Part shown: one piece after another, positions 35,513 to 58,735 of the stretch | Layout of the letters: each line of letters starts with the position of its first letter | How positions within the stretch are numbered: the first letter of the stretch is position 1 | IMG/VR virus record: IMGVR_UViG_3300027896_005002 | Coordinates: 1 to 59,487 of that record | Origin: a virus | Strand: one strand, 5' to 3' | Length of the DNA stretch: 59,487 nucleotides | Translations under genes and position numbers: made by a program | The notes under the pieces: model-generated | The model's database searches: none | Told to the model about the DNA's origin: nothing | The model's input: the letters and a program-made list of their open reading frames with translations, nothing else

Positions 35513-35733
35513 TTAACTTTACTTGCAAGATAATCAACTAAATCATCAAGTTTGTGAAAATTAGCAATATCTTCATCGGGAATTTCAAGACTAAAAGCTT
35601 CTTCCGTAGCAATTATAAGATTTACACAATCTAAAGAATCAATGTTAAAGGCAGTGGCATCATCTACTATGTCGATACAAAGTTCGTCAGCAATAATTTG
35701 TTTTAATTTGTCTTTAATAGTATTTCTATCCAT
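35509..35733 (-). CDS. acpP: Acyl carrier protein
   Basis: Seen in sequence: a 74-aa acidic protein with the phosphopantetheine-attachment motif FNIDSLDCVNLIIATEEAF (DSLD); GAAAGGA Shine-Dalgarno upstream. Confidence 0.8.
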   Translation of the reverse strand: MDRNTIKDKLKQIIADELCIDIVDDATAFNIDSLDCVNLIIATEEAFSLEIPDEDIANFHKLDDLVDYLASKVK

Positions 35734-35745
35734 AAATTATCCTTT

Positions 35746-38313: not shown

Positions 38314-38603
38314 CTTTTCATATGTTCACGAAGCTTTTTAAAATCATTTGTCATCATTGCATCATTAGCAAGTTCTATCAATTCATCTTGAAATATTCCA
38401 TAAGCAAAATTATATATTCTTGCTTTCTCATTAGCATTTATAGTTTTTTCAATATAATAAGCACATTTATTTGCACTATGAGCATGTGCACCGTTTCCAA
38501 AATTTTTTAATTTCCTAATTACTTCTTCTGCTTCATTTTTTTGATCTAATATCTCATTAAATTTTCGTTCTAACATATTAAGCATCAATTTCAGATTCAT
38601 CAA
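38304..38603 (-). CDS. Hypothetical 99-aa protein encoded between gyrB and gyrA
   Basis: ORF overlapping both gyrase genes (26 nt with gyrB, 10 nt with gyrA); helical and charged. Confidence 0.4.
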   Translation of the reverse strand: MMNLKLMLNMLERKFNEILDQKNEAEEVIRKLKNFGNGAHAHSANKCAYYIEKTINANEKARIYNFAYGIFQDELIELANDAMMTNDFKKLREHMKRWW

Positions 38604-45007: not shown

Positions 45008-45015
45008 ATATATCC

Positions 45016-46899
45016 TTAACTAAAATTTTTTTCTAACAATCCAGAAACATATTTTAAATCTGTAGTTATTGTGCTTCCAGAATCTGTAAATACAGTTTCA
45101 ATAAAATTCAGATTCAAATCATATCTTAAAATTGACATTGTTTCTACATTATATATTAATAAACTATCACCTAATCCAATTGATAATCCATATAATGTCT
45201 TTGAAATAAAATCAGAATAATTAATAATTGTCAAATCTGAACCTTTAATAACAGCTTTTGCTAATCTTTCACCAGTATTCAAAAATATAGCTTGTTGATC
45301 ACTCATCATAACCATTCCTACATATCTTTTTGGCACTTTATCAAATGGTGCAACGATAAGTTGTTTTTCAACAGCTTGAGAAAATGGTGATCCGTTCTCT
45401 AATACACTGTATAAAGTATTTCTTATTCCACAAATTAAAATCTCATTAAAATCGAGCCCTCTACAAAACCAAAATGGTTTGAAATTAAAATTACTTAATT
45501 GACCAAAAAGATTATTAGAATAACCTTGATCAGTCAATGATGTTGATAATTTTTGTATACCAACATACATAAATAAATCTCTACCAGAAATTGTTACAAA
45601 ATTTATTCCCAATACATAAAGAAAGACATTTAATTCATCATAAAATATAGCACATGGTTTACCAATAGTATTACTCGTATTGTATTGATTTGAAAATCGT
45701 AAAAACTCATCCAATTTGATAACTCTTGAATTCTCATAATCACAAACATAAATTTGATTACCGACATCCATAGTAATATTTTGAGGAAAATTTAATCCTG
45801 TTAATCCACTACCGGGTGTCCCAAATATTCCAAAAAAAGCATTATCATATATTGCAGGTACAGGATTTGTCGTATCAAATCGTTTTACTACATGCTTTTT
45901 AGTTTGTTGTACAATAAATAATTTATTTCCAGTAAGAGGTACTGGTGTATAAACACCATTAAGAGCGCCTATTGTTGTTATGCCTAATGTACGGACATCA
46001 CCATTAAAATCATCAATAGGAACATCATTATCAATATTATGACCAATTGCATTAAAAAAACATGGACTATTATCAATTGGATTAAATAATGCTGCTGCTG
46101 GATTTTCAAGTAAAGGATTTAAAAATCTCAAATTATGAGAACCAATATATGCACTGACATTACTAAAATCAGTTCCTCCATGTGGCGCAAAAGTAATGTT
46201 ATAATCAATTGACAATCCACCACCACCAACATTACCATCAGAATTAATACATGTATCATTTTGGCTCGAAAATATATTATTTAATATTTTACCTTGATGA
46301 ATATTAATTAAATTTATACCAGTTTGACCAGTATATAGAGTATTACTAACTATAACAATATTCGTGACGCCTGAACCTTCTCGTGTTTCTATAAAATTCG
46401 TTAATGCATCAAATTGTCCAGTATTAGTAAAAATACTATTAATTACTTTTAATGAAATAGAGCCTTGTGAATATCGATCGAGTACAGATGCATGATCAAA
46501 ATAACATTGTTCTACAAAAATTGATGTTTGATGATATGCAGCAATTACATTAGTATAATAACCGGCACCAGTAATTTTAAGTTGATATAAATAGACAGAC
46601 CCTGGTGATCCAGATCTATCAAAAGCAATAGATACTAATTCAGTATCATCTCGTAATGGAATATGCCATGTCGGTTTATTTATATTACTTGGCCATGATT
46701 GTATAGTTAATGAAAATGGAACTAATAAAAAATTACCTAATTCAGGTTCCATAATAATACCATTGTCTACTACATCAATTGTATCATCATTTGCAAGTCC
46801 TGGTATTCCTGCTATAAGACCAGTCAAAGAATGATATCCTTCATTAGGAATTAAACCTGTTTGCGTTGTAGACCCAGCATTCAAAAAATAAGTTGTCAT
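45016..46899 (-). CDS. Fibre or tailspike-like protein: N-terminal right-handed beta-helix-like region followed by NHL-repeat region
   Basis: Seen in sequence: N/I/T-rich ~22-aa rungs (TNIVIVSNTLYTGQTGINLINIHQGKILNNIFSS), then LFIVQQTKKHVVKRFD...FGIFGTPGSGLTGLNFPQNITMDVGNQIYVCDYENSRVIKL. Confidence 0.5.
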   Translation of the reverse strand: MTTYFLNAGSTTQTGLIPNEGYHSLTGLIAGIPGLANDDTIDVVDNGIIMEPELGNFLLVPFSLTIQSWPSNINKPTWHIPLRDDTELVSIAFDRSGSPGSVYLYQLKITGAGYYTNVIAAYHQTSIFVEQCYFDHASVLDRYSQGSISLKVINSIFTNTGQFDALTNFIETREGSGVTNIVIVSNTLYTGQTGINLINIHQGKILNNIFSSQNDTCINSDGNVGGGGLSIDYNITFAPHGGTDFSNVSAYIGSHNLRFLNPLLENPAAALFNPIDNSPCFFNAIGHNIDNDVPIDDFNGDVRTLGITTIGALNGVYTPVPLTGNKLFIVQQTKKHVVKRFDTTNPVPAIYDNAFFGIFGTPGSGLTGLNFPQNITMDVGNQIYVCDYENSRVIKLDEFLRFSNQYNTSNTIGKPCAIFYDELNVFLYVLGINFVTISGRDLFMYVGIQKLSTSLTDQGYSNNLFGQLSNFNFKPFWFCRGLDFNEILICGIRNTLYSVLENGSPFSQAVEKQLIVAPFDKVPKRYVGMVMMSDQQAIFLNTGERLAKAVIKGSDLTIINYSDFISKTLYGLSIGLGDSLLIYNVETMSILRYDLNLNFIETVFTDSGSTITTDLKYVSGLLEKNFS

Positions 46900-46907
46900 T
46901 TTATTCC

Positions 46908-49493
46908 TTATAAAGTATTGGTTTCTGCTATGTCTTCAACATCATAAGCATCAGTACCAATAGTTCCATCAGTATTTGAATAAACAATATTAACAAAATT
47001 TAAATTTGTATCATATTTTACTATTTTTTGTTTATCAGCATCATAAAGCATGAGTGTTTCATCTAGTTCACTTAATTTTAATCCTATTAATGTCTTTGTT
47101 ATAAAATTTGTGCGACCAATACGTTCAAATGATGAATTAACTTTTATAACACTTTTACCATCATTAAGATATAAAAATCCTTCATCAGAAACAATACCTT
47201 TATATAAAACTTGAGATTCACCAACATCACATATTATATTTTTTCTAACAAATAATGAAAAACTATTATCAGATTCTACAGTTTGATACAATGCTAAATT
47301 TACACCAGATATTAAAATACTATTAGCATCAAATCCCAAACATATACCGGTTGGATAATGTATTACATCACCAGGATTATTTAAATTTCCACTAACTTTT
47401 AAACTACTTAATGATGTAGATAACTTTTCTATTCTAATTTGATATGCATAATTAGATGTAAAAAAAACACCGACAACATATAATGAATTATTATTGTCAT
47501 CATACATAATTACCACTGGATTGCCAATTGTAGAAATTGTACTATATTTACTAACAAAATTTAATGTAGAATTTAATTTAACAATTCTATTATTAACTGT
47601 GTCACATACATAAATATTATTATCACCATCAATTGTAATACCATTTGGATAATTTAACATTGAATCTGTCGTTCCAGGCGTTTGATATACTCCAAATTCA
47701 TGTCCATCATATATTGCAGGTATTATAGAAGAATCTAAACTCTTTATAATATGACGTTTTGTTCGTTGTGTTAAATACATTTTAATAGTTGGTAAAACTG
47801 TAAAATCTACTGCACCTATTCCTATACGAACAGAATTCCATAAGCCTTGTTCATATTCTGTATAAGGAGGATTTCCGGGTTGTGTAGGTGTCAATGTTCC
47901 CACTGCTAATATAGAATTAGAAAAATTTGATCTACTACCATCCCATATAGGAGGAGGAGGTTGAATCCATCCAACTTGACAGTTAGTTAAAGTAGGTCTT
48001 ACAAGAGGCGCTACAGACATTGCACTATTTTTAAATATACCATCATCGACGTTTGCAGTTGATCCAAGTAAACAATCTATAAAAGTTGATTGCTTGTTAA
48101 AATAGACTGCACCAATACCAATTCTATTTGATCCCCATAAACCTTTTTCATATCCTACATAAGGTGCAATTCCGGGTTGTGGGGGACTTTCAGTACCCAA
48201 AGAAAGTATAGAATTATAAAATCCCTGTTTATCACCATCCCATTGCGGAACGGTAGGTTGAGTCCATCCTACTTGACATTCATCTACTAATCCACCTATT
48301 TGAGGAGTGTCAGCCATAGCACATCTTACAAAATTACCATTGTCAACATCTACAACAGATCCAAGTAAGCAATCTACAAACACTGATGGTGCTAAAACAT
48401 TTATATATCTATTCTTTAAAAGTTCAACATATCTCACTCTTAACATCACATTAAATTTTCCTGAATTATAATAATCGTGAGAAGGATTCTCGTCTGCTGA
48501 ATGACCTCCATCACCAAAATCCCAATAATAATCTAAAGAAAAACCCAATGGATTAGACACAATATGTAAAAAATCTACATGAAGCGGGTGAAATCCTACT
48601 CTGGGAGACGCAGAAAAATCACTCTGCACCATCACCATCCATGACCTTCCTAATAAAACATCTAAAAACTTATTTGACGGTGATGCATTGACGTCAGAAA
48701 TGCCAACCTTTACAAAGATACTCAAATCAAAGTTCCATATATACAAATCTGTCCCTACTCCTACATACAATATTCCATAATCATTATCTAAATATATGCT
48801 ATTAATGTTTCCTGGAATAGACCCTAAAGTAGAAGTTACTCCATTATACATATATAAGATAGTGTTTCCTGAACCATCGGGAGCATAAAAATATACTATC
48901 TCTCCTGTAGTTGTATATCCACCTACTCCTCTTCCCACATAATCAGTTTCCACAAACTCACTGGTTAATGAGTTCCATTTCGCAAAATATCCTATATCTG
49001 GATTAGATATTCTAGTTCCACAAGCATACATATTAGAAGGCGTATTAAAAATTTTAATGCTTTGTATTTCATAAGGAAAAGAAAAAAGTTGAACAGAATC
49101 AGTCATATCAAAAAAACCATAAAAATTAGCGGTATAAATATGACCGTTAAAATACGTTATAGATTCATACCCGCCTGTATAGAATGGAATACCTCTCCAA
49201 GCCAACCATCCTTCCTCTTCAGTCCAAGTATGTACAGCATTAAAAGTCCCACATATATATATTTTTGTTCCATCTGTAGTTAAATCAAGAAAGGCATCAA
49301 TTGAACCCGACATTTGAGAAGATGCAAACCAATTAAAAAGATCCGAAGTATAATACAATATTTGCCCTGTATATCCAAAATCACCTCGATTCATGGCAAA
49401 TATCTTGCCTCCACAAATAGCATATCTACTATCTCCCCCAGAAGCAAGAAGATGAATTAATATTTGATTATAATTAAAATCAGGTGCTGACAT
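46908..49493 (-). CDS. Fibre protein: beta-propeller, PKD domain, two ~95-aa Cys-containing tandem modules, NHL-repeat region
   Basis: Seen in sequence: PKD motif YYWDFGDGGHSADENPSHDY. Tandem modules FVDCLLGSVVDVDNGNF...CQVGWTQP...GLWGSNRIGIGAV and FIDCLLGSTANVDDGIF...CQVGWIQP...GLWNSVRIGIGAV. YLTQRTKRHIIKSLD...NNIYVCDTVNNRIVKL. Confidence 0.55.
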   Translation of the reverse strand: MSAPDFNYNQILIHLLASGGDSRYAICGGKIFAMNRGDFGYTGQILYYTSDLFNWFASSQMSGSIDAFLDLTTDGTKIYICGTFNAVHTWTEEEGWLAWRGIPFYTGGYESITYFNGHIYTANFYGFFDMTDSVQLFSFPYEIQSIKIFNTPSNMYACGTRISNPDIGYFAKWNSLTSEFVETDYVGRGVGGYTTTGEIVYFYAPDGSGNTILYMYNGVTSTLGSIPGNINSIYLDNDYGILYVGVGTDLYIWNFDLSIFVKVGISDVNASPSNKFLDVLLGRSWMVMVQSDFSASPRVGFHPLHVDFLHIVSNPLGFSLDYYWDFGDGGHSADENPSHDYYNSGKFNVMLRVRYVELLKNRYINVLAPSVFVDCLLGSVVDVDNGNFVRCAMADTPQIGGLVDECQVGWTQPTVPQWDGDKQGFYNSILSLGTESPPQPGIAPYVGYEKGLWGSNRIGIGAVYFNKQSTFIDCLLGSTANVDDGIFKNSAMSVAPLVRPTLTNCQVGWIQPPPPIWDGSRSNFSNSILAVGTLTPTQPGNPPYTEYEQGLWNSVRIGIGAVDFTVLPTIKMYLTQRTKRHIIKSLDSSIIPAIYDGHEFGVYQTPGTTDSMLNYPNGITIDGDNNIYVCDTVNNRIVKLNSTLNFVSKYSTISTIGNPVVIMYDDNNNSLYVVGVFFTSNYAYQIRIEKLSTSLSSLKVSGNLNNPGDVIHYPTGICLGFDANSILISGVNLALYQTVESDNSFSLFVRKNIICDVGESQVLYKGIVSDEGFLYLNDGKSVIKVNSSFERIGRTNFITKTLIGLKLSELDETLMLYDADKQKIVKYDTNLNFVNIVYSNTDGTIGTDAYDVEDIAETNTL

Positions 49494-51437
49494 TTATTCC
49501 TCTGTAATATAAAGATGTCCATAAACAGTTAATCCTTTTCCCACTATTCCACTAACATCTATATTAGTAGCTATCAATACTACATCCTTACATTCATACA
49601 TTCTATGTATATCTCCTCTTGTATATAGTATAGCATCTTTTATCCTTGAATCAGTGTTATCAAAAGTATCTTCAGGCACCAAACGTAAGTCCCCGACACC
49701 TATATTCCCTATTCTCCAATTTCCATTTATATCTGGCATTTGACTTTGCCAGTGATTACTATAAATTCCAAGTATCTCTTCTACATCCGTATTTAACGTT
49801 CTTATTCCTTTAATACTAAAATAATTTTCTATCTGATTAGAAGAAGAATATACCTTTAACTCATCATATGTAAATTGATCATTAAATGTTCCTAAATGTC
49901 CCGATCCTGTATAAGAATTATCTATTGTTGCATAAAGACATGTAAAATTAAATAATGTTTCAACAATATTACTTGGTATATAATTAGTCTTATATGCTTT
50001 TGCACGAAGTGTTACTCCATCTAAAGCTATATAGAAAGGATTTACATAAAGTAAAGAAGAAGGAGAAGGTTCTGTACCATCAAGAGTATATCTTATAGAA
50101 ACCCCAGGAGTAGAACATGATAATCTTACCAAAACTGGATTTGTAAAACTCCCTCCATTAGGATCAATTATAGGATCTTCACAAAATGGCGTTTGTGCAT
50201 CTATATAAGCAATTTTTGTATTTTCAACTATTCCCCATCCAGATATAGTAGCTCTTAGTACTACTGTATAAGTGTTAATCGCTGTATAAATATGAGATGG
50301 ATTTTGAGTACTGCCATGAGATGATCCATCTCCAAAATCCCAATCCCATACTGTTATCCTATCTGAAGGTTGGGTAAGGTCTGTAAAATTAACTGTCAAC
50401 GGAATGGGTCCTGAAACAGGGTCTCCACTAAAATCAGCTGCAGGTTCTAATACAGAAATATAATTTATTTTTATCTTAGAATGCGGCCCAGATTCATCTG
50501 TAACTATAAGTGATATAGTATACTGGTTTGGTACATTATATAAATGCGGCGGAGGGGTCTGTAAAGAACTATGCAATGATCCGTCTCCAAAATCCCAATC
50601 CCAACTTATTGGACTTGGCCATGTAGATAAATCAGTAAATTGTACAGTAGAACCTGCATACAATGATGTCGGGGTACCTGAAAAATCAGTTCTTATTGTA
50701 CTTTCATATTCAAAAATGTCCTCCTGTTGAGAATTTGCATAAAGAACTTCGGTTGGCGTAACACACATACCTAACCAATTATGGAATGGTTGTCCCAAAG
50801 CAACAAAATCTCCAATACCCGCTGTTCGTTTATAAACATCTCCTGCATAATCACTTATATAGACATCCCCATTAGAAAGATCAGATGCTATACCATAATA
50901 CCATAAAGGATGTCCATCTCGTATAAAAGGTAAACCCAGTGGAATAAAATCTCCAATACCCCCAGCTTGTACAAAAATATCATCTTCCCAAGAAGCTGCA
51001 TAAATATCACCATTTAAGGCGGAACCCATGCCTCTCCAAGCTCTCGTAGTCTGAGTCTGTTCTATCCAATCAACTCCAACTTGTTTAAATATTTTCCAAT
51101 CATTTATTGCTAAATATATATCACCATTAGGTGCGACTGTTACTGCAAATGCACCGCTATCTGAGTCTACATATATAAAATCACCAATACCTCCACTCCT
51201 TTTAAACAAACCATCACCATAGGACACTACATAAATATCCCCGGTATTCGGATTAGCAGCCATATTTGTCCAATTTAATTGTTGTTGATTTAAAGCAATA
51301 AAGTCACCGGATCCTCCTGCTTGTATATAAATATCTCCACCATTACCAATGCAAGCATAAACGTCACCATTAGGCGCAGCGGTCATCCCAGACCATCCTA
51401 AGGCTCCTTGATTTAATGCTACAAATTCATAAGGCAC
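49494..51437 (-). CDS. Fibre protein: ~40-aa beta-propeller-type repeats (GDIY...GG.GDF), two PKD domains, chitobiase-C/Fn3-like domain
   Basis: Seen in sequence: repeats GDVYACIGNGGDIYIQAGGSGDFIAL, GDIYVVSYGDGLFKRSGGIGDFIYV, GDIYAASWEDDIFVQAGGIGDFIPL. PKD motifs WDWDFGDGSLHSS and WDWDFGDGSSHGSTQNPSHIY. SIRYTLDGTEPSPSSLLY. GTG start at 51437 preceded by AGAGGT. Confidence 0.55.
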   Translation of the reverse strand: MPYEFVALNQGALGWSGMTAAPNGDVYACIGNGGDIYIQAGGSGDFIALNQQQLNWTNMAANPNTGDIYVVSYGDGLFKRSGGIGDFIYVDSDSGAFAVTVAPNGDIYLAINDWKIFKQVGVDWIEQTQTTRAWRGMGSALNGDIYAASWEDDIFVQAGGIGDFIPLGLPFIRDGHPLWYYGIASDLSNGDVYISDYAGDVYKRTAGIGDFVALGQPFHNWLGMCVTPTEVLYANSQQEDIFEYESTIRTDFSGTPTSLYAGSTVQFTDLSTWPSPISWDWDFGDGSLHSSLQTPPPHLYNVPNQYTISLIVTDESGPHSKIKINYISVLEPAADFSGDPVSGPIPLTVNFTDLTQPSDRITVWDWDFGDGSSHGSTQNPSHIYTAINTYTVVLRATISGWGIVENTKIAYIDAQTPFCEDPIIDPNGGSFTNPVLVRLSCSTPGVSIRYTLDGTEPSPSSLLYVNPFYIALDGVTLRAKAYKTNYIPSNIVETLFNFTCLYATIDNSYTGSGHLGTFNDQFTYDELKVYSSSNQIENYFSIKGIRTLNTDVEEILGIYSNHWQSQMPDINGNWRIGNIGVGDLRLVPEDTFDNTDSRIKDAILYTRGDIHRMYECKDVVLIATNIDVSGIVGKGLTVYGHLYITEE

Positions 51438-51594
51438 TGTAACCTCTATTCTGTTTAATTATTCTTTAAACATTATGTATTTTTATTATACAATATAAAA
51501 CTCATTTATATCATCTCATATAAATTCATTATAAAGATCACTGTTTTCGCACTTATTATCCAAATTAAAAACTACTTTTATATATCATTTGCTT

Positions 51595-52818
51595 TTAAAC
51601 AGAAACAGTTTTTCTACTTTTATTTGATATCTCAATATTTTTCTTTAAAGAATCTTTAATATTTTCATTATCACTATTTCTATATTTTATCCTTAAATTA
51701 TCATCATGATCAATATGAATTAATGAAGTGAAAGCAAATGAATGTTCATACAATCCAATATCAATAAACTTATGAAAAATATCTTCATCTTCATATCCAT
51801 ATCCATTCATCGACTCATTGAACCCATTTACCCTTTTAAAATTTGATAATTCAACAAAAAATGTACCTAACGTATGTCTATCATTAGGCAACCCTCCTCT
51901 AAAAAAACAATTTTTTACTTCAAAAATATTTAAATTACTTGCAATTTTTACATCTGAATCTATAAACATTACATACTTTGTAGTAACAAATTTAGCTCCA
52001 AAATTTCTTGATTTAGATCCATGAAATTCTTTTTGTCCATCTACTCGTATAATTTTTACCAATTTATTGAGCTCTTCAATTTCTTGCAAATTTATATCAC
52101 TAGACCAATCAACGACAATAATATTAGTAAAACCATAATTTAACCATGATTTATAACTCTGTAACAGGAAACTTTCTCGATTCATGCACACAGTAACTAA
52201 AGTAACATCATCATTATTAAAATTAAAATTAATTTTTGGATAATTAGATAAAAATTCATGACCTTCAAATTTAACTAAAATTTTATTATTATCTTGTCTA
52301 GTAAAACAAATATCTTGATTTGAAATTTGCTGCCATAATCCTGCAATATTATTTAATGTTAAACCAATAGCAAGATGTTTAAAATATCCTTCAGGTATTA
52401 TTTGAAATCTATGCTTATACTTAGCTAATAAACTAGACATGTGTCGTTTATCAAAAACAGAAAAATTATTTATAATTTCATACACTAATTCACGATCATT
52501 ATGACTTATATACATAACACATTCATAAGGACCTTTAAATAAATAGGATAACTCAGGATTAAAATCAAACCATTTAGTAATAATTATGTCAGAATCCATC
52601 CATATAGAATCAGGATTATCCCTCAAATATTGTAGTCGAAATAAAGAACTAGCAAATCGAATGTCTGAAAATTTAGACAAATCAAAATTTTGTGGAAACT
52701 TAGTAATTAATTTATATTGAACATTCTGTGGTTTATCATTTTTAATTTTATCCATGAAAAATTTGTAACATTCTGGAATTTTATCACTATTGAAAAACTG
52801 TACAATCTTCATGTTCAT
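51595..52818 (-). CDS. Two-domain glycosyltransferase (N-terminal DXD sugar-binding GT32-like domain; C-terminal GT2/GT7-like domain)
   Basis: Seen in sequence: ASSLFRLQYLRDNPDSIWMDSDIII matches the Gly_transf_sug pattern (R.L.yL...GG/ds.yiDtD). C-terminal VTLVTVCMNRES...NIIVVDWSSD...VMFIDSDV...GYGYEDEDIFHK is GT2/beta-4-GalT-like. Confidence 0.6.
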   Translation of the reverse strand: MNMKIVQFFNSDKIPECYKFFMDKIKNDKPQNVQYKLITKFPQNFDLSKFSDIRFASSLFRLQYLRDNPDSIWMDSDIIITKWFDFNPELSYLFKGPYECVMYISHNDRELVYEIINNFSVFDKRHMSSLLAKYKHRFQIIPEGYFKHLAIGLTLNNIAGLWQQISNQDICFTRQDNNKILVKFEGHEFLSNYPKINFNFNNDDVTLVTVCMNRESFLLQSYKSWLNYGFTNIIVVDWSSDINLQEIEELNKLVKIIRVDGQKEFHGSKSRNFGAKFVTTKYVMFIDSDVKIASNLNIFEVKNCFFRGGLPNDRHTLGTFFVELSNFKRVNGFNESMNGYGYEDEDIFHKFIDIGLYEHSFAFTSLIHIDHDDNLRIKYRNSDNENIKDSLKKNIEISNKSRKTVSV

Positions 52819-52832
52819 TTATTCCAAATTGA

Positions 52833-54128
52833 TTATGCTGGAAAATTTGATTGATCATACCATACCCAATAAGAGATATATGCTGTATCAGTCCAATTAT
52901 TATACAGTCCTACTTTAACCGAATCAATTGCTGGATCATGATAAATAGCAGGATCACTATGTTTTGCATCTAGCATATATACATTTAATGTTCCAGGATT
53001 TGTTCTACTAGATGCTGAAAGATGTACCGGATCAGCATTATAAATAAAAGTAATAACTACATTACCATATTGATTATTAGTAAAATGAAAAAAACCAGAA
53101 ACCATATTTGTTAATGGTTCATCACCTGGTAAATAAGCTGTAATAAAACCAAAACCAACAAGACTTCGACTACCAGTACCTTCTGTAAAAATAATTGGTA
53201 AATCTTCTTGCTCTGCCAAATATATTCTATCAGCCTTAAAATGCGCTCCAACTGATGTAGGCGGGTCAGGATGACCAACAGGATCACCACCATAAAGAGT
53301 TTTATTTGCTACACTATACCAAATACTATTTACGGCATCATTACCTGTATCATAAATAGCAGTATATGGCGAATTAATAATTACTCTTGCTGGACTTATT
53401 GGCCATAAATTAATATCTGTAGAACAATAAATTCCAGTACTAGCACCAGCCCCGCTATTATCACCAATACTTAAAAAATTAAAAGTTGATTCATTAACAT
53501 AATTAAAAATAACAGAAAATATACCAGGATCTAAAAATGTTGCAAGAACAGATCCTATATATGTTGCAAATCCTACACCATTAACTATCATTGTACTATA
53601 AAAACTTGAGTCTATCGCTACATAAGGAACAAAACTTATAACGGCAGTACTATCTTCAATTTCAAATTTTGACACTAATGGTGCATTTCCAATACCAACA
53701 TTAGTTCCATCAGTTTTTACTGGCGATGAAGCTATAGAACTTGCACTAGTAAATTTCGCCAAATAACCGGATGATCCTGATCCAGCAAATGCTCCTGAAA
53801 TACCTGAATAACCACTAATTCCTTGCGTACCTGGTGGTCCTTGTATTCCTTGTGAACCAATATGCCCTGAATAACCTGAATAACCTGAATAACCTGAATA
53901 ACCAGATATACCTTGAGCACCAGAATATCCAGAAAAACCAAGACCTGAATATCCTGAAAATCCAGTGACAAAATGATTGCCATCTTTGTCTTTCATAACA
54001 ACATGATGAGTATCATTTGCAATTCCAGCTTGACATGGATCTAAATTTGCAATTAAATCTACTTCAGTATTATTTATCCATGTTATATGTTTTGGCACTG
54101 AATTAGGTTCATTATATTGATTACCCAT
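52833..54128 (-). CDS. Collagen-like GYSG-repeat fibre protein with C-terminal globular domain (431 aa)
   Basis: Seen in sequence: GFSGYSGLGFSGYSGAQGISGYSGYSGYSGYSGHIGSQGIQGPPGTQGISGYSGISG. Strong AAAGGAGA Shine-Dalgarno. Confidence 0.65.
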   Translation of the reverse strand: MGNQYNEPNSVPKHITWINNTEVDLIANLDPCQAGIANDTHHVVMKDKDGNHFVTGFSGYSGLGFSGYSGAQGISGYSGYSGYSGYSGHIGSQGIQGPPGTQGISGYSGISGAFAGSGSSGYLAKFTSASSIASSPVKTDGTNVGIGNAPLVSKFEIEDSTAVISFVPYVAIDSSFYSTMIVNGVGFATYIGSVLATFLDPGIFSVIFNYVNESTFNFLSIGDNSGAGASTGIYCSTDINLWPISPARVIINSPYTAIYDTGNDAVNSIWYSVANKTLYGGDPVGHPDPPTSVGAHFKADRIYLAEQEDLPIIFTEGTGSRSLVGFGFITAYLPGDEPLTNMVSGFFHFTNNQYGNVVITFIYNADPVHLSASSRTNPGTLNVYMLDAKHSDPAIYHDPAIDSVKVGLYNNWTDTAYISYWVWYDQSNFPA

Positions 54129-54137
54129 ACATCTCCT

Positions 54138-55088
54138 TTACGGAAAAAATTCAACAAAATCTGAAATATCATATGCATCAGTTGCTATTAACCCATCATT
54201 AGGATATGAATATACATCATCTATATATGTTAACTCTGAATCAAATCGCATAATTTTTCTTTTATTTGCATCATATGTCAACAATTGACCGGTCATTCTA
54301 TTTTCAGTTAATCCTAATAATGACCTGGAAATATTCTGCGTGTTGCCAATTTTATTAAAAGTGCTATCAACTCTAATTAATTTTTGCCCATTATTAAAAT
54401 AATAATCATCATTGGAATGTTTAATCACTTTATTGTAATTTGTATCAGTAAATGTACTATAAATTGTTCCTTTAGTAGTCTCACCATGGATTACCTGTCG
54501 AACTAAAGGTGAAAATGTTTGTGTTGCAAAATAATAATTTGTAATATAAATATATTCATCTATTCCAGTAATAAAATATTGAATATATACAGTTTCAAAA
54601 TCAGGTGTAGGTGATACAAAATAAAAACCTGTAGGCTTACAATTATTATTCTTTAAAGTATATAAAACATCACTCACAACAGGATCTGTTAAACTATTTG
54701 CTGATAATTTTATTATTCTAAGATTTAATTTAGAATCAACTACAATTACAAATATATTATCTTGCAGCATAGTAACTCGCCATTCATAACTTATTGCATA
54801 GGGATAACCATAATTCTCTGTTAAATATGATGCAACAAAAAATCCTTCTGGAAAAAAACTATCAAGTAAAAGTACTCTTTTATTACCAGTATCAGAGATA
54901 TAAAAATTAGTATTCGACAAACTAACATCTGAAATACATTGGGGACAATTCAATTTTGTGAGGGAATTTCCTGGAATACCAAATACACCAAATTCAATAC
55001 CATTATACACTGCAGGATCAACAGTAGCATCCAGACTTTTCAAAATATGACGTTTTGACCTTTGCGTCAAATAAATTGTTCTCGACAT
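54138..55088 (-). CDS. NHL-repeat fibre protein, paralog family member (316 aa)
   Basis: Seen in sequence: MSRTIYLTQRSKRHILKSLD...FGVFGIPGNSLTKLNCPQCISDV...DTGNKRVLLL; C-terminal FNNGQKLIRVDSTFNKIGNTQ...LLTYDANKRKIMRFD. Confidence 0.5.
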   Translation of the reverse strand: MSRTIYLTQRSKRHILKSLDATVDPAVYNGIEFGVFGIPGNSLTKLNCPQCISDVSLSNTNFYISDTGNKRVLLLDSFFPEGFFVASYLTENYGYPYAISYEWRVTMLQDNIFVIVVDSKLNLRIIKLSANSLTDPVVSDVLYTLKNNNCKPTGFYFVSPTPDFETVYIQYFITGIDEYIYITNYYFATQTFSPLVRQVIHGETTKGTIYSTFTDTNYNKVIKHSNDDYYFNNGQKLIRVDSTFNKIGNTQNISRSLLGLTENRMTGQLLTYDANKRKIMRFDSELTYIDDVYSYPNDGLIATDAYDISDFVEFFP

Positions 55089-55107
55089 ATAACTTTGTCT
55101 CCATAAA

Positions 55108-56526
55108 CTAAGAAATTTCTACAATATCTGTTACGTCATATGCACTTGTCTGAAGTGTATCTCCAGTACCATGAAATACATTCTCAATAAAATTAAGATT
55201 TGCACTATATCTCGAAATTGTTTGTGTATCAGCATTATATATTAACAATGACTGATATCTAGGATCGTGAATGTCACCAACATTACTAACTTTTAAACAA
55301 CGAATAGTTTTTGCAATAATATCCGTATCACCTTCATTTACAAAACTACTATTAACTCTCAAAATTTTTCGACCATTATTAACAAAAATATATCCATTTG
55401 GATGTTTTACAATCGCATTAAAAGCTGTATTCATAAATTCATTTGGCCACGTTGGTAATTCACCAATTACAGTTTGTGTAGTAAAAACAGAAAAGTTTGT
55501 TGATTCAATTGTTTGAAATAAACTACCAACAGCATAACCGCCATTAATAGGGCGCACATTTGGTAAATAAACAGTCCAAGGAAAATGTGTTCCTGAACCA
55601 TTTGTTGATGTAACATTTACTACTAAATTACCATTTATATGATTATATGAAGTAATAGTCCCTTGCATATTATTAGATACATCGTACTTAATAATAATAT
55701 TTTGCCCTGCAGAAAATGCTAAACCTGTTCCTATAACAAGTGATTGACTGCCAGTTCCAATAGTTAAATGCGTCGATGATGATGTTGTTGAACTAGTTGC
55801 ATAAGTAGGACTTGAAACAACTCTAGCAGCTCCACTTACTATAAAACTATTTGAAGCAAATCCTCTACAAATTCCCGTCGGTCTAAACCACGCAGTTTGT
55901 ATATTGTTTAAATTTCCACTAACTTTTACACTAACTAAATTTGTTGTAAGTCTTTCAATTCTAATAAAAGGACCACTATGATCTGGTAAATAAACAGACC
56001 AAGAAGAATATGTTCCTGAACCATTTATTGATAATACATTAACAACTAATTGACCATTTATCGGATTATAAGAAGTAATCATTCCTTGCATGTTAATTGA
56101 TGGATTATTAAAATATTCAATAATAATATTTTGTCCGACTGAATATGACAAACTCGTTTGTATAACTAGAGATTGACTACCCAATCCAACAGTTAACGAT
56201 GTTATTGATGTTGATGATGGTGGTTCTCCTGCACCCATGCCAACTACATACAAATCATTTGTAATATCATCATACATTATAGCATATGGTTTACCTATAG
56301 TATTTGCAGTACTATGCTCTGAATGATACGTTAAATTGGGATAAAGTTTTACAACTCTTGAATGATCACAAACAAACCAATATCCACTATTTGCAACACC
56401 CCATGGATAATTTAATGTACTATTAGTCTCACCTTTAACACCAAACGTACCAAAACTATCACCTACAACACCATTATTTACGGCTTTAACAACATGACAT
56501 TTAGTTCTTTGTGTAAAATGAATCAT
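55108..56526 (-). CDS. NHL-repeat fibre protein carrying two copies of the beta-sandwich module also found in the giant GYSG protein
   Basis: Seen in sequence: LTVGLGSQSLVIQTSLSYSVGQNIIIEYFNNPSINMQGMITSYNPINGQLVVNVLSINGSGTYSSWSVYLP and HLTIGTGSQSLVIGTGLAFSAGQNIIIKYDVSNNMQGTITSYNHINGNLVVNVTSTNGSGTHFPWTVYLP. These align with TLTIGTGSQTLTIGTQLAYSIGQEILIVYDASNSMKGNVVVYNPVNGYFVVNVTSIIGSGTYSNWNVSL from 1..5843. Confidence 0.55.
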   Translation of the reverse strand: MIHFTQRTKCHVVKAVNNGVVGDSFGTFGVKGETNSTLNYPWGVANSGYWFVCDHSRVVKLYPNLTYHSEHSTANTIGKPYAIMYDDITNDLYVVGMGAGEPPSSTSITSLTVGLGSQSLVIQTSLSYSVGQNIIIEYFNNPSINMQGMITSYNPINGQLVVNVLSINGSGTYSSWSVYLPDHSGPFIRIERLTTNLVSVKVSGNLNNIQTAWFRPTGICRGFASNSFIVSGAARVVSSPTYATSSTTSSSTHLTIGTGSQSLVIGTGLAFSAGQNIIIKYDVSNNMQGTITSYNHINGNLVVNVTSTNGSGTHFPWTVYLPNVRPINGGYAVGSLFQTIESTNFSVFTTQTVIGELPTWPNEFMNTAFNAIVKHPNGYIFVNNGRKILRVNSSFVNEGDTDIIAKTIRCLKVSNVGDIHDPRYQSLLIYNADTQTISRYSANLNFIENVFHGTGDTLQTSAYDVTDIVEIS

Positions 56527-56588: not shown

Positions 56589-58499
56589 TTAAAATAATCC
56601 TTCGCTAGCTAACCTTGCAACAAAAGCTTCTGTATTATCATAAGTTTCTACATTGCCATTTTTATCAACAATATACTCTTCAAGTACAGGTTGACCATTT
56701 TCTTCTTTATAATTAGTCTTTATTGTAATATAACCATCACCTTGCTTTACAGTGTCAACTGTTGAATAACTTTTGTTTGATTCAGCAAAAGTTACCTCAG
56801 GCATTGTAATAACTTCATCAAAAATATCATCTACTACTTGAGCAATCCTTTCATTAACTGATGATTTCTTTTTCTTCTTCTTGTCTTCTTTATAATGAGG
56901 TTCTGGCTTCTTCGTTAATTTTCCACCAGGACCCCATTTTTCACCAGGTTTCTTTTTTGACATCCACCAACTATTATGAACAAAAACACCTGCATCTAAA
57001 GCAAAATTATGATACTTATCAACCGTAAAATCATAGACATCTTCTTTAACATCAAGTACTTTTGCACTAACAACTTTATGATTAATTTTTAATTGGTACT
57101 TTTTCTCTGTTTCAAAAATAAGATTATCTAAAGTACCAAAAGTTTTGATAGCAGTACAAAAATCAGGATTGTTAATTGAATGTCTATGTTCATCCCATGT
57201 ATTTTCATTAATTGGTAAATTAGCTTCAATAATTCTTTTTGTTACTTTCATTGATTTTGCTTTTACCATATTACCAAATTTAAATTTTTCATCTACATTA
57301 ATTTTAATTTGATCAACTGTACCAAAGTGTAAAATTGCTGTAGAAAAAGATGGATTACTTTTGTATCCCATATGCTCAAACCATGTATTTTCATTAATTG
57401 ACAACCCATAATCCATTATTCTTTTTGCTATCCTCAAAATTTTTGATTTTGTAATCGTGCCATCAATATTTCTTTCTCTAATAGCTTCAATTGCTTCTTC
57501 AGATTCATTATATTTTCCTAAAGCAATTTTTCCAGCTTCAGCACCTAACATTCCATTTTCCTTACAGTTTTTAATTTGCTCACCGCGATGCTTTTGCCAC
57601 AATAATTTCATATTACGTCTTCCAATAATAGACGCCATTATTCGACCTTCTTCAGACTTATTATATTCAATTAGATATTTTGCACAATCAGCTCTACGAT
57701 GAAGTATTGAATGTTCACTACCAGTAAGTAATTTGATATTATTTGGATGGTTATTATCTTTATTAAAATCGTCATGATGATTAATAAAACCTCTTGTCCA
57801 TTCTTTACCAAACTTCATCTTAGCAACAAGTCTATGAACAAAATGTTTTTTTCCATCATTCGACCAACATCGTTTATAACCGTCACAAAAACTTCCTTCA
57901 TATCTATCAAAATAAATCGGCATCAAAGATTCATTACATTGCAAATTCTGAGCTTCTTTATAAGAACCATCAATTAACATAAACTTATGATTTTTAGTAC
58001 ATCTAATTGATTGTCCATTATCAAGAATAATCTCAATAAGCTCAGCATTATTAATTGTTTTATGAAAATTAAATGCTTTTCCTACAACAATTTTATTTTG
58101 ATCAACATCAAAAGAATAAACAAATGTTTCTTTATCTATACCAAATTCATCAACTAATTGTTTTATTGATAACACTCTTCCATCCAACAGTGGTACTTTA
58201 GTATCACCAGTAAAACACAATGCCCAAGGATTTGTAATATTCTTGTGCTTTTTCATTGCACGTGTTGTTCCTCCCCATCCTGGAGGAGATACAGCTACTT
58301 TTTCGTTTGCCAATACTTCACTGGCAACACGATCAATATTTTCATTCATACTACCTCTCCTTAAACGATTCTTAAATTGTTCCTCGATTAGTTCTTTACC
58401 ATCACTCGGCAAATCAACAAATCTCTTCTCTAACTGATCATGTCCATTTTCGGCATAATCAGTTCGTTCACGTAATGGCTGTAACTTCTCGTCTAACAT
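56589..58499 (-). CDS. Intein-containing precursor of a ~221-aa Lys/Trp-rich protein of unknown function (94-aa N-extein, 415-aa intein, 127-aa C-extein)
   Basis: Seen in sequence: the extein junctions are ...NITNPWAL | CFTGDTKVPLLDG (intein block A, Cys1) and ...VYDFTVDKYHNFALDAGVFVHN | SWWMSKK (terminal His-Asn, Ser+1). Block B TxxH is IRCTKNHKFML. Confidence 0.75.
   Translation of the reverse strand: MLDEKLQPLRERTDYAENGHDQLEKRFVDLPSDGKELIEEQFKNRLRRGSMNENIDRVASEVLANEKVAVSPPGWGGTTRAMKKHKNITNPWALCFTGDTKVPLLDGRVLSIKQLVDEFGIDKETFVYSFDVDQNKIVVGKAFNFHKTINNAELIEIILDNGQSIRCTKNHKFMLIDGSYKEAQNLQCNESLMPIYFDRYEGSFCDGYKRCWSNDGKKHFVHRLVAKMKFGKEWTRGFINHHDDFNKDNNHPNNIKLLTGSEHSILHRRADCAKYLIEYNKSEEGRIMASIIGRRNMKLLWQKHRGEQIKNCKENGMLGAEAGKIALGKYNESEEAIEAIRERNIDGTITKSKILRIAKRIMDYGLSINENTWFEHMGYKSNPSFSTAILHFGTVDQIKINVDEKFKFGNMVKAKSMKVTKRIIEANLPINENTWDEHRHSINNPDFCTAIKTFGTLDNLIFETEKKYQLKINHKVVSAKVLDVKEDVYDFTVDKYHNFALDAGVFVHNSWWMSKKKPGEKWGPGGKLTKKPEPHYKEDKKKKKKSSVNERIAQVVDDIFDEVITMPEVTFAESNKSYSTVDTVKQGDGYITIKTNYKEENGQPVLEEYIVDKNGNVETYDNTEAFVARLASEGLF
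56973..58217 (-). mobile_element. Intein (Hint domain split by an HNH homing-endonuclease domain and two copies of a ~45-aa helical repeat)
   Basis: Seen in sequence: I mapped the boundaries codon by codon (Cys1 codon at 58215-58217; terminal Asn codon at 56973-56975). The HNH-like region is HFVHRLVAKMKFGKEWTRGFINHHDDFNKDNNHPNNIKLLTGSEHSILHRR. The internal duplicates are NENTWFEHMGYKSNPSFSTAILHFGTVDQI and NENTWDEHRHSINNPDFCTAIKTFGTLDNL. Confidence 0.75.
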
Positions 58500-58735
58500 T
58501 AATAAATGTTAAAGTTCTTATCATATCCACCAGTTCCAAATCCTTCTTTCGAACGATTTGTAAGCGGAGATGATACACCGTCAATAGTAGTAACACTTGA
58601 ATCTACTCGACGTGTTGTTCCAGTTGTTGTTGGCTCAATCTGAGCAAACTTCGGGTCATCAAATCTAAAAGTTTCAACTTTTGATGCAACACCTGCAACA
58701 ACAGCTTCTTTTAAAGTAGTGTTAATAGCACTCAT
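58499..58735 (-). CDS. Hypothetical small protein (78 aa); first minus-strand gene after the strand switch
   Basis: ORF whose TAA stop overlaps the ATG of the intein-containing gene by 1 nt (TAATG). A GGAGGA Shine-Dalgarno lies upstream on the minus strand (plus-strand tcctcc at 58741-58746). Confidence 0.45.
   Translation of the reverse strand: MSAINTTLKEAVVAGVASKVETFRFDDPKFAQIEPTTTGTTRRVDSSVTTIDGVSSPLTNRSKEGFGTGGYDKNFNIY

What the first reader, a model, noticed from the sequence alone, without database searches (positions are those of the whole stretch)
56589..58499. 415-aa intein with HNH homing endonuclease inserted in a small Lys/Trp-rich protein of unknown function
All canonical splicing elements are visible: Cys1 in CFTGDTKV, TxxH in CTKNHKF, a C-terminal HN, and Ser+1. 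Inteins normally target highly conserved sites of essential enzymes such as terminase, polymerase, helicase or RNR. Here the host protein is a 221-aa basic protein that I cannot assign (spliced junction ...GWGGTTRAMKKHKNITNPWAL-SWWMSKKKPGEKWGPGG...). It sits at the head of the fibre operon.

The intein itself contains an internal duplication of a ~45-aa helical unit flanking the HNH domain.
Basis: seen in the sequence. Interest (0 to 1): 0.6.

Follow-up and report, generated by a model that had tools for sequence, protein, structure and literature searches.

The report
HNH intein splitting a conserved phage mini-domain
A gene of a ~416-kb "huge" phage is interrupted by an ordinary self-splicing protein element (an intein with an HNH homing nuclease); the one unusual point is its target, a 40-residue module of unknown function that is common in uncultured phages and has no entry in any database searched.

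Summary
On the minus strand, 58499..56589 encodes a 636-aa precursor: a 94-aa N-extein, a 415-aa intein and a 127-aa C-extein. Pfam and NCBIfam intein models pass their curated cut-offs. Cys1, TxxH, the terminal HN and Ser+1 are intact, and a confident AlphaFold model matches solved inteins.

More than 24 intein-less homologues (194-242 aa) align across the junction without a gap. The closest one comes from the same metagenome. Other alleles carry the same HNH intein, a one-repeat version or a 150-aa mini-intein at the same site.

- The internal duplication is a tandem pair of about 59-aa four-helix units downstream of the HNH domain, not flanking it.
- The host protein is acidic at both ends and basic only in the centre.

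The insertion site lies inside the host's most conserved motif, (A/S)PPGW.GT.KAMKKHK.I.NPWAL|(S/A)WWM. This module occurs in over 1,000 protein clusters from uncultured phages, often as a stand-alone protein of about 60 aa. Pfam, PHROGs, NCBIfam, PDB and deposited phage genomes have no match for it.

A related intein sits at the same module position in a non-orthologous protein. The host's function remains unknown; gene context hints at virion association.

Verdict: a new member of a known kind, of modest interest.

The parts
56589..58499 (-). Precursor ORF, 636 aa plus stop: N-extein, intein, C-extein
   Evidence: The identical protein is found on a 415,903-bp contig and on two other contigs from other samples.
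58218..58499 (-). N-extein, aa 1-94, ending ...HKNITNPWAL
   Evidence: colinear with intein-less homologues
58218..58301 (-). N-terminal half of the conserved module (KVAVSPPGWGGTTRAMKKHKNITNPWAL)
   Evidence: The invariant columns of alignment A1 cluster here. The module recurs in more than 1,000 clusters.
56973..58217 (-). Intein, 415 aa (Cys1 ... His414-Asn415)
   Evidence: Pfam and NCBIfam; PDB sequence hits to DnaE and DnaB inteins; AF2 pLDDT 88.4; Foldseek matches to solved inteins at probability 1.00
57903..58217 (-). HINT N-lobe (intein residues 1-105; blocks A and B, T74/H77)
57708..57842 (-). HNH_3 endonuclease core (intein residues 126-170; H147 H148 N156 N160 H169 H173 invariant)
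57279..57455 (-). Helical repeat 1 (intein residues 255-313), a four-helix unit; presumed DNA-binding
57093..57269 (-). Helical repeat 2 (intein residues 317-375); 42% aa and 62% nt identical to repeat 1
   Evidence: A single copy is present in alleles P0188 and P0026.
56973..57080 (-). HINT C-lobe (intein residues 380-415; blocks F and G, VYDFTVDKYHNFAL...GVFVHN)
56592..56972 (-). C-extein, aa 510-636, starting with Ser+1 (SWWMSKKK...)
56889..56972 (-). C-terminal half of the module plus the start of the Lys-rich linker (SWWMSKKKPGEKWGPGGKLTKKPEPHYK)
56592..56777 (-). C-terminal small domain of the host protein (spliced aa 160-221; four strands plus a helix). This is the only confidently modelled part of the extein.
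   Evidence: block pLDDT about 79-88; conserved in A1
58499..58735 (-). Conserved 78-aa upstream ORF whose stop overlaps the host gene's start (ATGA); first gene of the unit
   Evidence: homologues stand upstream of intein-less alleles in L002 and L094, and as the C-terminus of a 256-aa protein in L001

Best explanation
This is a canonical class-1 intein carrying an in-frame HNH (HNH_3-type) homing endonuclease and two tandem four-helix units.

Shown: It is inserted in frame in a gene conserved among phage-G-like huge phages. The insertion point lies inside the host protein's most conserved motif, ...AMKKHK.ItNPWAL|SWWM....

Inferred mechanism: After translation the HINT domain (Cys1, Thr74/His77, His414-Asn415, Ser+1) excises the 415 residues and ligates the exteins into the 221-aa protein. 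At the DNA level, the HNH nuclease would cut the intein-less allele when an intein-free relative co-infects the same cell. The helical units probably guide it to the site. Recombinational repair then copies the intein in. The site codes for Trp, Met, Asn and Pro and so has little synonymous freedom, which makes it a stable target. Only alleles with Ser at +1, rather than the commoner Ala, can carry the element.

Host protein: It has an acidic N-terminal region, a basic Trp/Lys-rich ~40-aa module with a Lys-rich linker, and a small acidic beta-rich C-terminal domain. The module is an autonomous, phage-restricted mini-domain of unknown function. My best guess, at low confidence (about 0.3), is that this protein is virion-associated and made late with the receptor-binding or fibre cassette, and that the module is a binding element for a common ligand such as nucleic acid.
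For: Intein identity:
- Pfam Intein_splicing (1.7e-21) and HNH_3 both pass their cut-offs.
- NCBIfam intein_Nterm and intein_Cterm match exactly at the predicted boundaries.
- phmmer finds Npu/Ssp DnaE and DnaB inteins, aligning TKNHKF with TKDHKF and VYDFTVDKYHNFAL with VYDIGVE.DHNFAL.
- In 30 related inteins these residues are invariant: C1, T74, H77, H147, H148, N156, N160, H169, H173, H403, N404, H414, N415.
- The AF2 model has pLDDT 88.4 and shows HINT beta-lobes, a beta-beta-alpha HNH and two four-helix repeats. Foldseek matches solved inteins at probability 1.00.

True insertion:
- 24 intein-less homologues of 194-242 aa (E down to 1e-102) align with no gap at the junction, and the invariant columns are concentrated around it.

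Mobility signature:
- Alleles at the same site include 415-aa two-repeat inteins (P0185-P0187, L015/L016), a one-repeat form (P0188), a 150-aa mini-intein (P0045/L095) and empty sites.
- The closest empty allele (P0001, 72% aa identity) is from the same sample as the 416-kb intein-bearing contig.
- The intein has 28% GC, against 39% and 33% for the exteins.
- All 7 intein-bearing alleles have Ser+1, whereas 63 of 69 modules in IMG/VR have Ala.

Host context:
- The gene order 75-78-aa ORF, host gene, variable NHL / beta-helix / PKD / collagen-like genes, then a dTMP-kinase-like gene (183-191 aa in relatives) and a radical-SAM/SPASM gene recurs in the window and in L001, L002 and L003. In L004 and L095, short contigs truncated at the gene's 5' end, only the downstream NHL-type genes are visible.
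- In a T4-like contig, a module-bearing protein lies between the portal and the prohead protease, among genes whose N-termini look like the T4 capsid-targeting sequence.
- Other module proteins lie next to TerL and portal, or next to tail sheath.
Against: Splicing and endonuclease activity are inferred from intact motifs only.

No function is shown for the host protein. AF2 of the spliced extein is poor (pLDDT 60). Pfam, PHROGs, NCBIfam, PDB and BFVD give nothing for it.

Gene contexts for the module are heterogeneous. The abundant stand-alone ~56-77-aa forms sit next to primase and PD-(D/E)XK exonuclease genes rather than structural genes. The virion-association idea is therefore weak.

The window's protein lacks the T4-type targeting sequence. 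Some family members lack the module entirely (P0031, P0033, P0046), so it may not be essential to the family's core role.
Confidence: 0.88

Rival explanations
1. It is a bacterial-intein-like (BIL) or other Hint-only domain, or a PT-HINT toxin cassette. Such a domain would cleave or rearrange the protein rather than splice precisely out of a conserved host.
For: Pfam gives weak sub-threshold hits to Hint (E=0.027) and PT-HINT (E=0.64). Foldseek also lists BIL2 and hedgehog Hint domains at lower rank, as expected for one superfamily.
Against: The intein-specific models pass their curated cut-offs, while the Hint and PT-HINT models do not. The C-terminal His-Asn plus Ser+1 are present and invariant. 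The exteins are colinear with 24 intein-less homologues. The insertion lies in a conserved site, not a variable one. The gene carries no toxin module.
Confidence: 0.03
2. The element still splices, because it must in order to restore the conserved motif, but its HNH nuclease is no longer an active homing enzyme. On this view it is a fixed, vertically inherited passenger on its way to becoming a mini-intein.
For: Mini-intein (150 aa) and one-repeat derivatives exist at the same site. The HNH_3 score is only just above the cut-off (26.7 against 24.8). The inteins in different alleles are 46-61% identical, so they are old.
Against: All HNH metal-binding and catalytic positions are invariant across 30 relatives. 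The domain is modelled with high confidence. The ORF is uninterrupted and identical in contigs from at least 3 samples. Empty and occupied alleles co-occur in one sample.
Confidence: 0.2
3. The intein has been co-opted as a conditional switch. Splicing would respond to redox state, temperature or assembly state, and would time the activation of the module-bearing protein during infection.
For: The intein interrupts the core of the module, so the precursor is probably inactive. Conditional protein splicing is known for some inteins (my own background knowledge). The association with this site is long-standing across diverged alleles.
Against: About half of the family and most modules lack any intein and have Ala at +1, so regulation by splicing is not needed for function. 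Nothing in the sequence indicates a sensor, such as a Cys pair forming a redox trap near the junction.
Confidence: 0.07
4. Alternative for the host: the module protein is an intracellular, replication-associated or host-takeover factor (for example a small DNA- or protein-binding effector), not a virion component.
For: Stand-alone module genes (P0382, P0311, L034) and the intein-bearing P0189 sit beside Toprim primase and PD-(D/E)XK exonuclease genes.
Against: In the window's family the gene is always co-oriented with, and immediately upstream of, the fibre-like cassette. Module proteins also occur in portal-protease, TerL-portal and sheath neighbourhoods.
Confidence: 0.35

Closest known systems
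[quoted passage not shown] 1997; reported as rare 'non-canonical' inteins of actinobacteriophages in bioRxiv 10.1101/2025.01.02.630785)
   Same: A HINT splicing domain is split by an in-frame HNH nuclease. The element is phage-borne and patchily distributed, with mini-intein derivatives. The closest sequence relatives outside this site sit in RtcB, GyrA, C1 peptidase, gp25-like and ThyA exteins. The best NCBIfam whole-protein hit is 'intein-containing RtcB family protein'.
   Different: The extein is a new one: a non-enzymatic ~40-aa module of unknown function. The endonuclease region also carries a tandem duplication of a four-helix unit.
Mycobacteriophage inteins (Kelley et al. 2016, PMC5050341)
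   Same: These are phage inteins that concentrate in conserved motifs. That survey already lists 11 inteins in a cluster C1 'hypothetical protein, unknown function'. An intein in an unassigned phage protein therefore has precedent.
   Different: Those inteins are mostly of LAGLIDADG type and sit mostly in nucleotide-binding enzymes. This one is in a huge phage related to Bacillus phage G, in a tiny non-catalytic module.
Npu/Ssp DnaE and DnaB inteins (PDB 4kl5, 2keq, 1zd7, 4o1r, 1mi8)
   Same: The closest solved splicing domains by sequence (E about 1e-7) and by fold. They share block B TK(D/N)HKF and block F/G ...VYD..V...HNFAL..G...HN.
   Different: Those are mini or split inteins without a nuclease, and they sit in replication enzymes.
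T4 internal head proteins with a capsid-targeting sequence (IPI-III, Alt)
   Same: A module-bearing protein (P0034, MKTFLQFIEN...) lies between the portal and the S77 protease in a T4-like contig. It sits among about 8 genes that start M(K/L/I)TF.QF.E, one of them an ADP-ribosyltransferase. This resembles the T4 sequence MKTYQEFIAE (my own background knowledge).
   Different: The window's protein has no such N-terminus; it starts MLDEKLQPLRERTDY. The link is through the shared module only.

Membership tests
Intein (class 1, HINT superfamily) | Nucleophilic Cys/Ser at intein position 1 (block A) | tested here: met
   Cys95 of the precursor. TIGR01445 starts at residue 95. C1 is invariant in 30 relatives.
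Intein (class 1, HINT superfamily) | Block B Thr-x-x-His | tested here: met
   CTKNHKF; T74 and H77 are invariant. It aligns to TKDHKF of the DnaE inteins.
Intein (class 1, HINT superfamily) | Blocks F and G with penultimate His, terminal Asn, and a Ser/Thr/Cys at +1 | tested here: met
   VYDFTVDKYHNFAL...GVFVHN|S. TIGR01443 covers residues 487-510. H414 and N415 are invariant. All 7 intein-bearing alleles have Ser+1.
Intein (class 1, HINT superfamily) | In-frame insertion whose removal restores a protein colinear with intein-less homologues | tested here: met
   24 homologues of 194-242 aa show no gap at the junction. Empty-site DNA is seen in L001, L002, L014 and L094.
Intein (class 1, HINT superfamily) | HINT fold | tested here: met
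   AF2 pLDDT 88.4. Foldseek matches PI-PfuI and the NpuDnaB, Ssp DnaE and DnaB inteins at probability 1.00.
Intein (class 1, HINT superfamily) | Protein splicing demonstrated | not testable with these tools
   Needs expression followed by SDS-PAGE or mass spectrometry.
HNH homing endonuclease (Pfam HNH_3 type) | Beta-beta-alpha-metal core with the His...Asn...His/Asn motif | tested here: met
   HNH_3 scores 26.7 bits against a cut-off of 24.8. PHROG HNH families reach down to 3.8e-11. H147, H148, N156, N160, H169 and H173 are invariant. The beta-beta-alpha core is modelled at residues 144-177.
HNH homing endonuclease (Pfam HNH_3 type) | Presence/absence polymorphism at one site among close alleles (the footprint of homing) | tested here: met
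   Occupied, mini and empty alleles exist. An empty allele occurs in the same sample.
HNH homing endonuclease (Pfam HNH_3 type) | Site-specific cleavage of the empty allele | not testable with these tools
   Needs an in vitro cleavage assay.
Bacterial intein-like (BIL) domain | Hint domain in variable regions of non-conserved proteins, without the canonical C-terminal His-Asn plus a conserved +1 nucleophile | tested here: not met
   The insertion is in the most conserved motif, and HN plus Ser+1 are present. This is therefore not a BIL domain.
T4-type packaged internal protein | N-terminal capsid-targeting sequence (M-K-T-[YF]-x-x-F-[IL]-x-E) and a gp21-type protease | tested here: not met
   The window's protein starts MLDEKLQPLRERTDY. 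The window's head protease matches phrog_18299 but no Pfam S77 model. Only the distant module carriers P0034, P0060 and P0088 have this sequence.

The most novel reading that the evidence does not exclude
The real novelty would be the target rather than the intein. The motif (A/S)PPGW.GT.KAMKKHK.I.NPWAL(A/S)WWMK.KGY..H would be an undescribed, phage-restricted mini-domain. It appears in over 1,000 clusters at 50% identity, either as a stand-alone ~60-aa protein or embedded one to several times in proteins of up to 1,360 aa.

This HNH intein lineage would home to the module itself, not to one gene. That would have let it jump between non-orthologous genes of unrelated phages: the 221-aa huge-phage protein here, and a ~77-aa primase-linked protein, P0189 (intein-bearing) versus P0382 (intein-less). 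The intein would then mark the NPWAL|SWWM helix start as the functional core of a new, widespread phage domain.
Probability: 0.45. Interest if true: 0.55.

Novelty: new member of a known kind. Interest (0 to 1): 0.4.

Why it matters
The intein is textbook, so it matters mainly as annotation. The gene should be read as a 221-aa protein plus a mobile element, not as a 636-aa 'HNH endonuclease'.

It also offers three smaller things:
- A naturally compact HNH intein and a related 150-aa mini-intein with Ser+1, which could serve as splicing tools.
- A clean case of occupied, mini and empty alleles in co-occurring huge phages, usable for studying homing in uncultured viruses.
- A pointer to an unannotated, very common phage mini-domain. 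Inteins usually mark functionally critical surfaces, so the NPWAL|SWWM site is a sensible first target for mutagenesis once a cultured carrier is found.

Tried and rejected
Function of the extein. None of the following gave a significant match:
- Pfam, PHROGs and NCBIfam on the spliced sequence.
- PDB profile searches with the family alignment and the module alignment.
- AF2 of the spliced protein, which reached only pLDDT 60, followed by Foldseek against BFVD.

Cultured relatives:
- blastn and tblastn of the locus, the spliced protein, a module consensus and P0034 against 50,697 deposited phage genomes found no match. Bacillus phage G and the 485-kb uncultured phage LR745208 share the capsid protein, but the tblastn searches found no homologue of this protein in any deposited record.

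Literature:
- Searching full text for the motif strings found 0 papers.

Cellular genomes:
- The scan found one hit, on a 5-kb MAG contig.

Function of module carriers:
- Ten representative long module proteins matched only PHROGs of unknown function.

Protease-site idea:
- The capsid protein has NPLRERLDY at aa 31-39, which resembles the host's QPLRERTDY. Phage G's capsid protein has NPIRVSLDY at that position. I treat the resemblance as unsupported.

Codon idea:
- I considered that the AGT codon for Ser+1 might be a co-conversion mark of intein-bearing alleles. The empty allele L094 also uses AGT, so I rejected it.

L004 (P0026):
- This locus looked like a decayed intein, but the contig is short, has low coverage and has an odd GC-rich 5' end. 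I drew no conclusion from it.

Promoter and terminator scan:
- It found fewer promoter-like sites than in shuffled sequence (11 against 17.1+-3.9) and no terminator-like site, so it was uninformative.
Full report
1. THE OBSERVATION

The ORF lies on the minus strand, 58499..56589, and encodes 636 aa. Cutting at CFTGDTKV and at VFVHN|S gives a 94-aa N-extein (58218-58499), a 415-aa intein (56973-58217) and a 127-aa C-extein (56592-56972).

Profile searches confirm the assignment:
- Pfam Intein_splicing spans its whole model (E=1.7e-21, 77 bits against a gathering score of 35.8).
- Pfam HNH_3 passes its cut-off (26.7 against 24.8) at aa 220-264.
- PHROGs shows only HNH families.
- NCBIfam intein_Nterm starts at residue 95 (6.5e-14), and intein_Cterm ends at residue 510 (4.9e-5). 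Both are above their cut-offs.
- phmmer against PDB finds the Npu/Ssp DnaE, DnaB, RadA and NrdJ-1 inteins. The block B and block F/G residues line up.

An alignment of 30 related inteins shows these residues invariant: C1, T74, H77, H147, H148, N156, N160, H169, H173, H403, N404, H414 and N415.

AlphaFold2 on that alignment gives pLDDT 88.4. The model has:
- HINT strands at residues 1-105 and 380-415.
- A beta-beta-alpha HNH unit.
- A helical region at residues 180-251.
- Two four-helix units at residues 254-313 and 316-373.

Foldseek against PDB returns solved inteins at probability 1.00.

The internal duplication is real (local score 137 against 32+-5 for shuffles). It is a tandem pair of ~59-aa units, 42% identical in protein and 62% in DNA. 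Both units lie C-terminal to the HNH domain; they do not flank it.

Alleles P0185-P0187 share both copies. P0188 and P0026 have one copy. The duplication is therefore old within one branch of this intein lineage.

The spliced host protein is not basic overall (pI 6.4). It has an acidic N-terminal part (pI 4.9), a basic centre at aa 67-130 (pI 10.4, with all five Trp) and an acidic C-terminal part (pI 4.1).

3. A TRUE INSERTION, WITH A MOBILITY FOOTPRINT

The spliced 221-aa sequence finds at least 24 full-length homologues of 194-242 aa (50-72% identity, E down to 1e-102). All are metagenomic, unnamed and without Pfam domains. They align across the junction without a gap. The invariant columns cluster around it: AVSPPGW.GT..AMKKHK.I.NPWAL|(S/A)WWM..K..G..WG.GG.L.

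Other alleles at the same site carry:
- A 415-aa two-repeat intein (P0185/L015, P0186, P0187/L016).
- A one-repeat intein (P0188).
- A 150-aa mini-intein without a nuclease (P0045/L095).

These are documented.

The exact 636-aa protein occurs on a 415,903-bp contig and on two shorter contigs from other samples. The nearest empty allele (P0001, 72% identity) comes from the same sample as the 416-kb contig.

The intein is more AT-rich (28% GC) than the exteins (39% and 33%).

All seven intein-bearing alleles have Ser at +1. The family is split about evenly between Ser and Ala. Among 69 modules in IMG/VR, 63 have Ala. This fits the chemical need for a +1 nucleophile.

4. THE GENOME AND THE NEIGHBOURHOOD

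The window encodes the following:
- Topoisomerase II subunits and a type IA topoisomerase.
- TerL, portal and a head protease.
- A 290-aa capsid protein.

The capsid protein is 48-52% identical to those of Bacillus phage G and a 485-kb uncultured phage. The source is therefore a phage-G-like huge phage.

The host gene is second in a co-oriented unit. Upstream there is a divergent 335-aa gene. Then comes a conserved 78-aa ORF whose stop overlaps the host gene's start.

Downstream come:
- 472-aa and 316-aa proteins.
- A collagen-like fibre protein.
- A glycosyltransferase.
- PKD/NHL proteins.
- A dTMP-kinase-like gene and a radical-SAM/SPASM gene.

The same frame recurs around intein-less alleles in L001, L002 and L003, with a different set of NHL, beta-helix and LamG genes in between. 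NHL-type genes also follow the intein-bearing or mini-intein alleles in L004 and L095, two short contigs truncated at the gene's 5' end. 'Head of the fibre operon' is therefore approximately right.

5. THE HOST PROTEIN AND ITS MODULE

Nothing assigns the extein:
- Pfam, PHROGs and NCBIfam on the spliced sequence.
- A PDB profile search.
- AF2, which reaches pLDDT 60. Only the C-terminal four-strand-plus-helix domain is confident.
- Foldseek against BFVD.
- tblastn against deposited phages.

A profile search of 1.8 billion cluster representatives gave 1,034 hits at E<=1e-3. Most match only profile positions ~60-100, that is, the motif (A/S)PPGW.GT.KAMKKHK.I.NPWAL(A/S)WWMK.KGY..H.

This module occurs at N-termini, at C-termini or internally. 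It appears once to several times in proteins of 50 to 1,360 aa, many of them long, charged and low in complexity. It is very often a stand-alone 48-84-aa protein.

It has no entry or match in:
- Pfam, PHROGs, NCBIfam or PDB.
- 50,697 deposited phage genomes.
- The searched literature.
- Species-representative cellular genomes, apart from a single hit on a 5-kb MAG contig among 185,579 genomes.

Gene contexts of the module are mixed:
- In a T4-like contig the carrier P0034 (MKTFLQFIEN...) lies between Portal_T4 and Peptidase_S77 / T4_CASP / Gp23. It sits among about eight genes whose N-termini resemble the T4 capsid-targeting sequence, one of them an ADP-ribosyltransferase.
- Other carriers lie two genes after TerL and before the portal, or next to a tail sheath or an Ig-like structural protein.
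- P0029 sits between LamG/beta-helix fibre-like genes.
- The abundant stand-alone forms (P0382, P0311, L034) sit beside primase and PD-(D/E)XK exonuclease genes.

Some members of the window's family lack the module altogether (P0031-P0033, P0046).

My commitment on function is therefore limited. The protein is probably late-expressed and virion-associated (about 0.3). The module is a small binding element for a common ligand. Neither point is shown.

6. THE INTEIN TARGETS THE MODULE

After the same-family alleles, the next best relative of the window's intein is P0189 (215 bits, 33% identity over the full length). It ranks above all inteins in RtcB, GyrA, C1 peptidase, gp25-like and ThyA exteins.

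P0189 is a 436-aa protein with a 31-aa N-extein and a 46-aa C-extein that contain little beyond the module. Its 359-aa HNH intein sits at the identical position (...EIKNPWAL|C...VFVHN|SWSMKKKGYKPHYK).

Its neighbourhood (volactin, Toprim primase, PDDEXK exonuclease) matches that of the intein-less 77-aa P0382 and of L034.

The same intein lineage therefore occupies the same module position in two non-orthologous genes of unrelated phages. This suggests that the homing site is the module-coding DNA itself: AAT CCN TGG GCN YTN | AGT/TCN TGG .... A proper phylogeny is still needed to prove it.

7. COMPARISON WITH WHAT IS KNOWN, AND NOVELTY

In-frame HNH inteins have been known since 1997. A recent survey describes them as rare, non-canonical phage inteins (bioRxiv 10.1101/2025.01.02.630785). 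Inteins in phage 'hypothetical proteins' have been recorded before: 11 in cluster C1 mycobacteriophages (PMC5050341).

All sequence-testable defining features of an intein and of an HNH endonuclease are met. The BIL alternative fails.

This is a new member of a known kind in a new extein. The tandem helical duplication and the module target are the only unusual features.

8. VERDICT

The finding is real and correctly interpreted. Its main claim to surprise, an intein outside a conserved functional site, dissolves because the site is the most conserved motif of the host.

The remaining interest lies in the undescribed, widespread phage mini-domain that the intein marks, and in possible module-level homing.

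Interest 0.4.

Noticed in passing
window 56889-56972 and 58218-58301; loci L017-L093, L098-L100: The ~40-aa module (A/S)PPGW.GT.KAMKKHK.I.NPWAL(A/S)WWMK.KGY..H appears to be an undescribed phage-restricted mini-domain. It gives 1,034 hits among cluster representatives (50% identity). It often forms stand-alone 48-84-aa proteins and is sometimes present several times in one protein. No match was found in Pfam, PHROGs, NCBIfam, PDB, deposited phage genomes or the searched literature, and only one in cellular genomes.
   Followed up: partly
L008 4582-8559 and 13282-14695: A T4-like contig carries about 8 small genes, mostly between the portal and the S77 protease. Their products start M(K/L/I/V)TF.QF.E, resembling the T4 capsid-targeting sequence. 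One is an ADP-ribosyltransferase and one carries the module. This looks like a large array of candidate packaged internal proteins.
   Followed up: partly
window 19354-20226 (-), capsid protein aa 31-39: The capsid protein has NPLRERLDY near its N-terminus, resembling QPLRERTDY at aa 7-15 of the intein host. These are the only two matches to P[LIV].E[RKQ].[DE][YF] in all six frames of the window. Phage G's capsid protein has NPIRVSLDY there, so a shared protease site or assembly motif is not supported.
   Followed up: partly
window 58499-58735 (-): A 78-aa ORF has a stop that overlaps the host gene's ATG. It is conserved upstream of intein-less alleles (L002, L094), and in L001 it forms the C-terminus of a 256-aa protein. 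The conserved end is ...SPL.N.SKEG.GTGGYD..FN(I/V)(Y/F). Its function is unknown; it is probably translationally coupled to the host gene.
   Followed up: partly
window 55108-56526 (-): The 472-aa protein just downstream contains an internal duplication of about 125 aa. The best-conserved core is LT(V/I)G.GSQSLVI.T.L..S.GQNIII.Y....NMQG.ITSYN.ING.LVVNV.S.NGSGT...W.VYLP. It has no Pfam or PHROG match.
   Followed up: partly
window 43844-56526 compared with L001 8730-13834 and L002 8698-14705: Between the host gene and the conserved dTMP-kinase-like and radical-SAM/SPASM pair, each related phage carries a different set of NHL, PKD, beta-helix, LamG and collagen-like genes. The window's set also includes a glycosyltransferase. 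This looks like a hypervariable receptor-binding cassette in a fixed frame.
   Followed up: partly
P0031-P0033, P0046 (relatives; no window coordinates): Some family members lack the whole module and Lys-rich linker. In P0031, P0032 and P0046 the sequence resumes directly after the conserved ...(K)IAVS. At least two different deletion end-points follow that start. It is unclear whether the module behaves as a cassette or whether these are assembly artefacts.
   Followed up: no
window 33201-40491 (-): The window encodes both subunits of a type II topoisomerase (637 aa and 855 aa) and a type IA topoisomerase with Toprim and zinc-ribbon domains (679 aa) side by side.
   Followed up: no
window 16202-19261 (-): A 1,019-aa protein lies next to the capsid gene. 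It combines several glycosyltransferase domains with a SAM-dependent methyltransferase domain. It might serve virion or DNA glycosylation.
   Followed up: no
L004 1-390: The contig that holds allele P0026 has stop codons just upstream of the HNH motif and a GC-rich 5' end unlike the rest. It is either a decaying intein or a chimeric low-coverage assembly.
   Followed up: no
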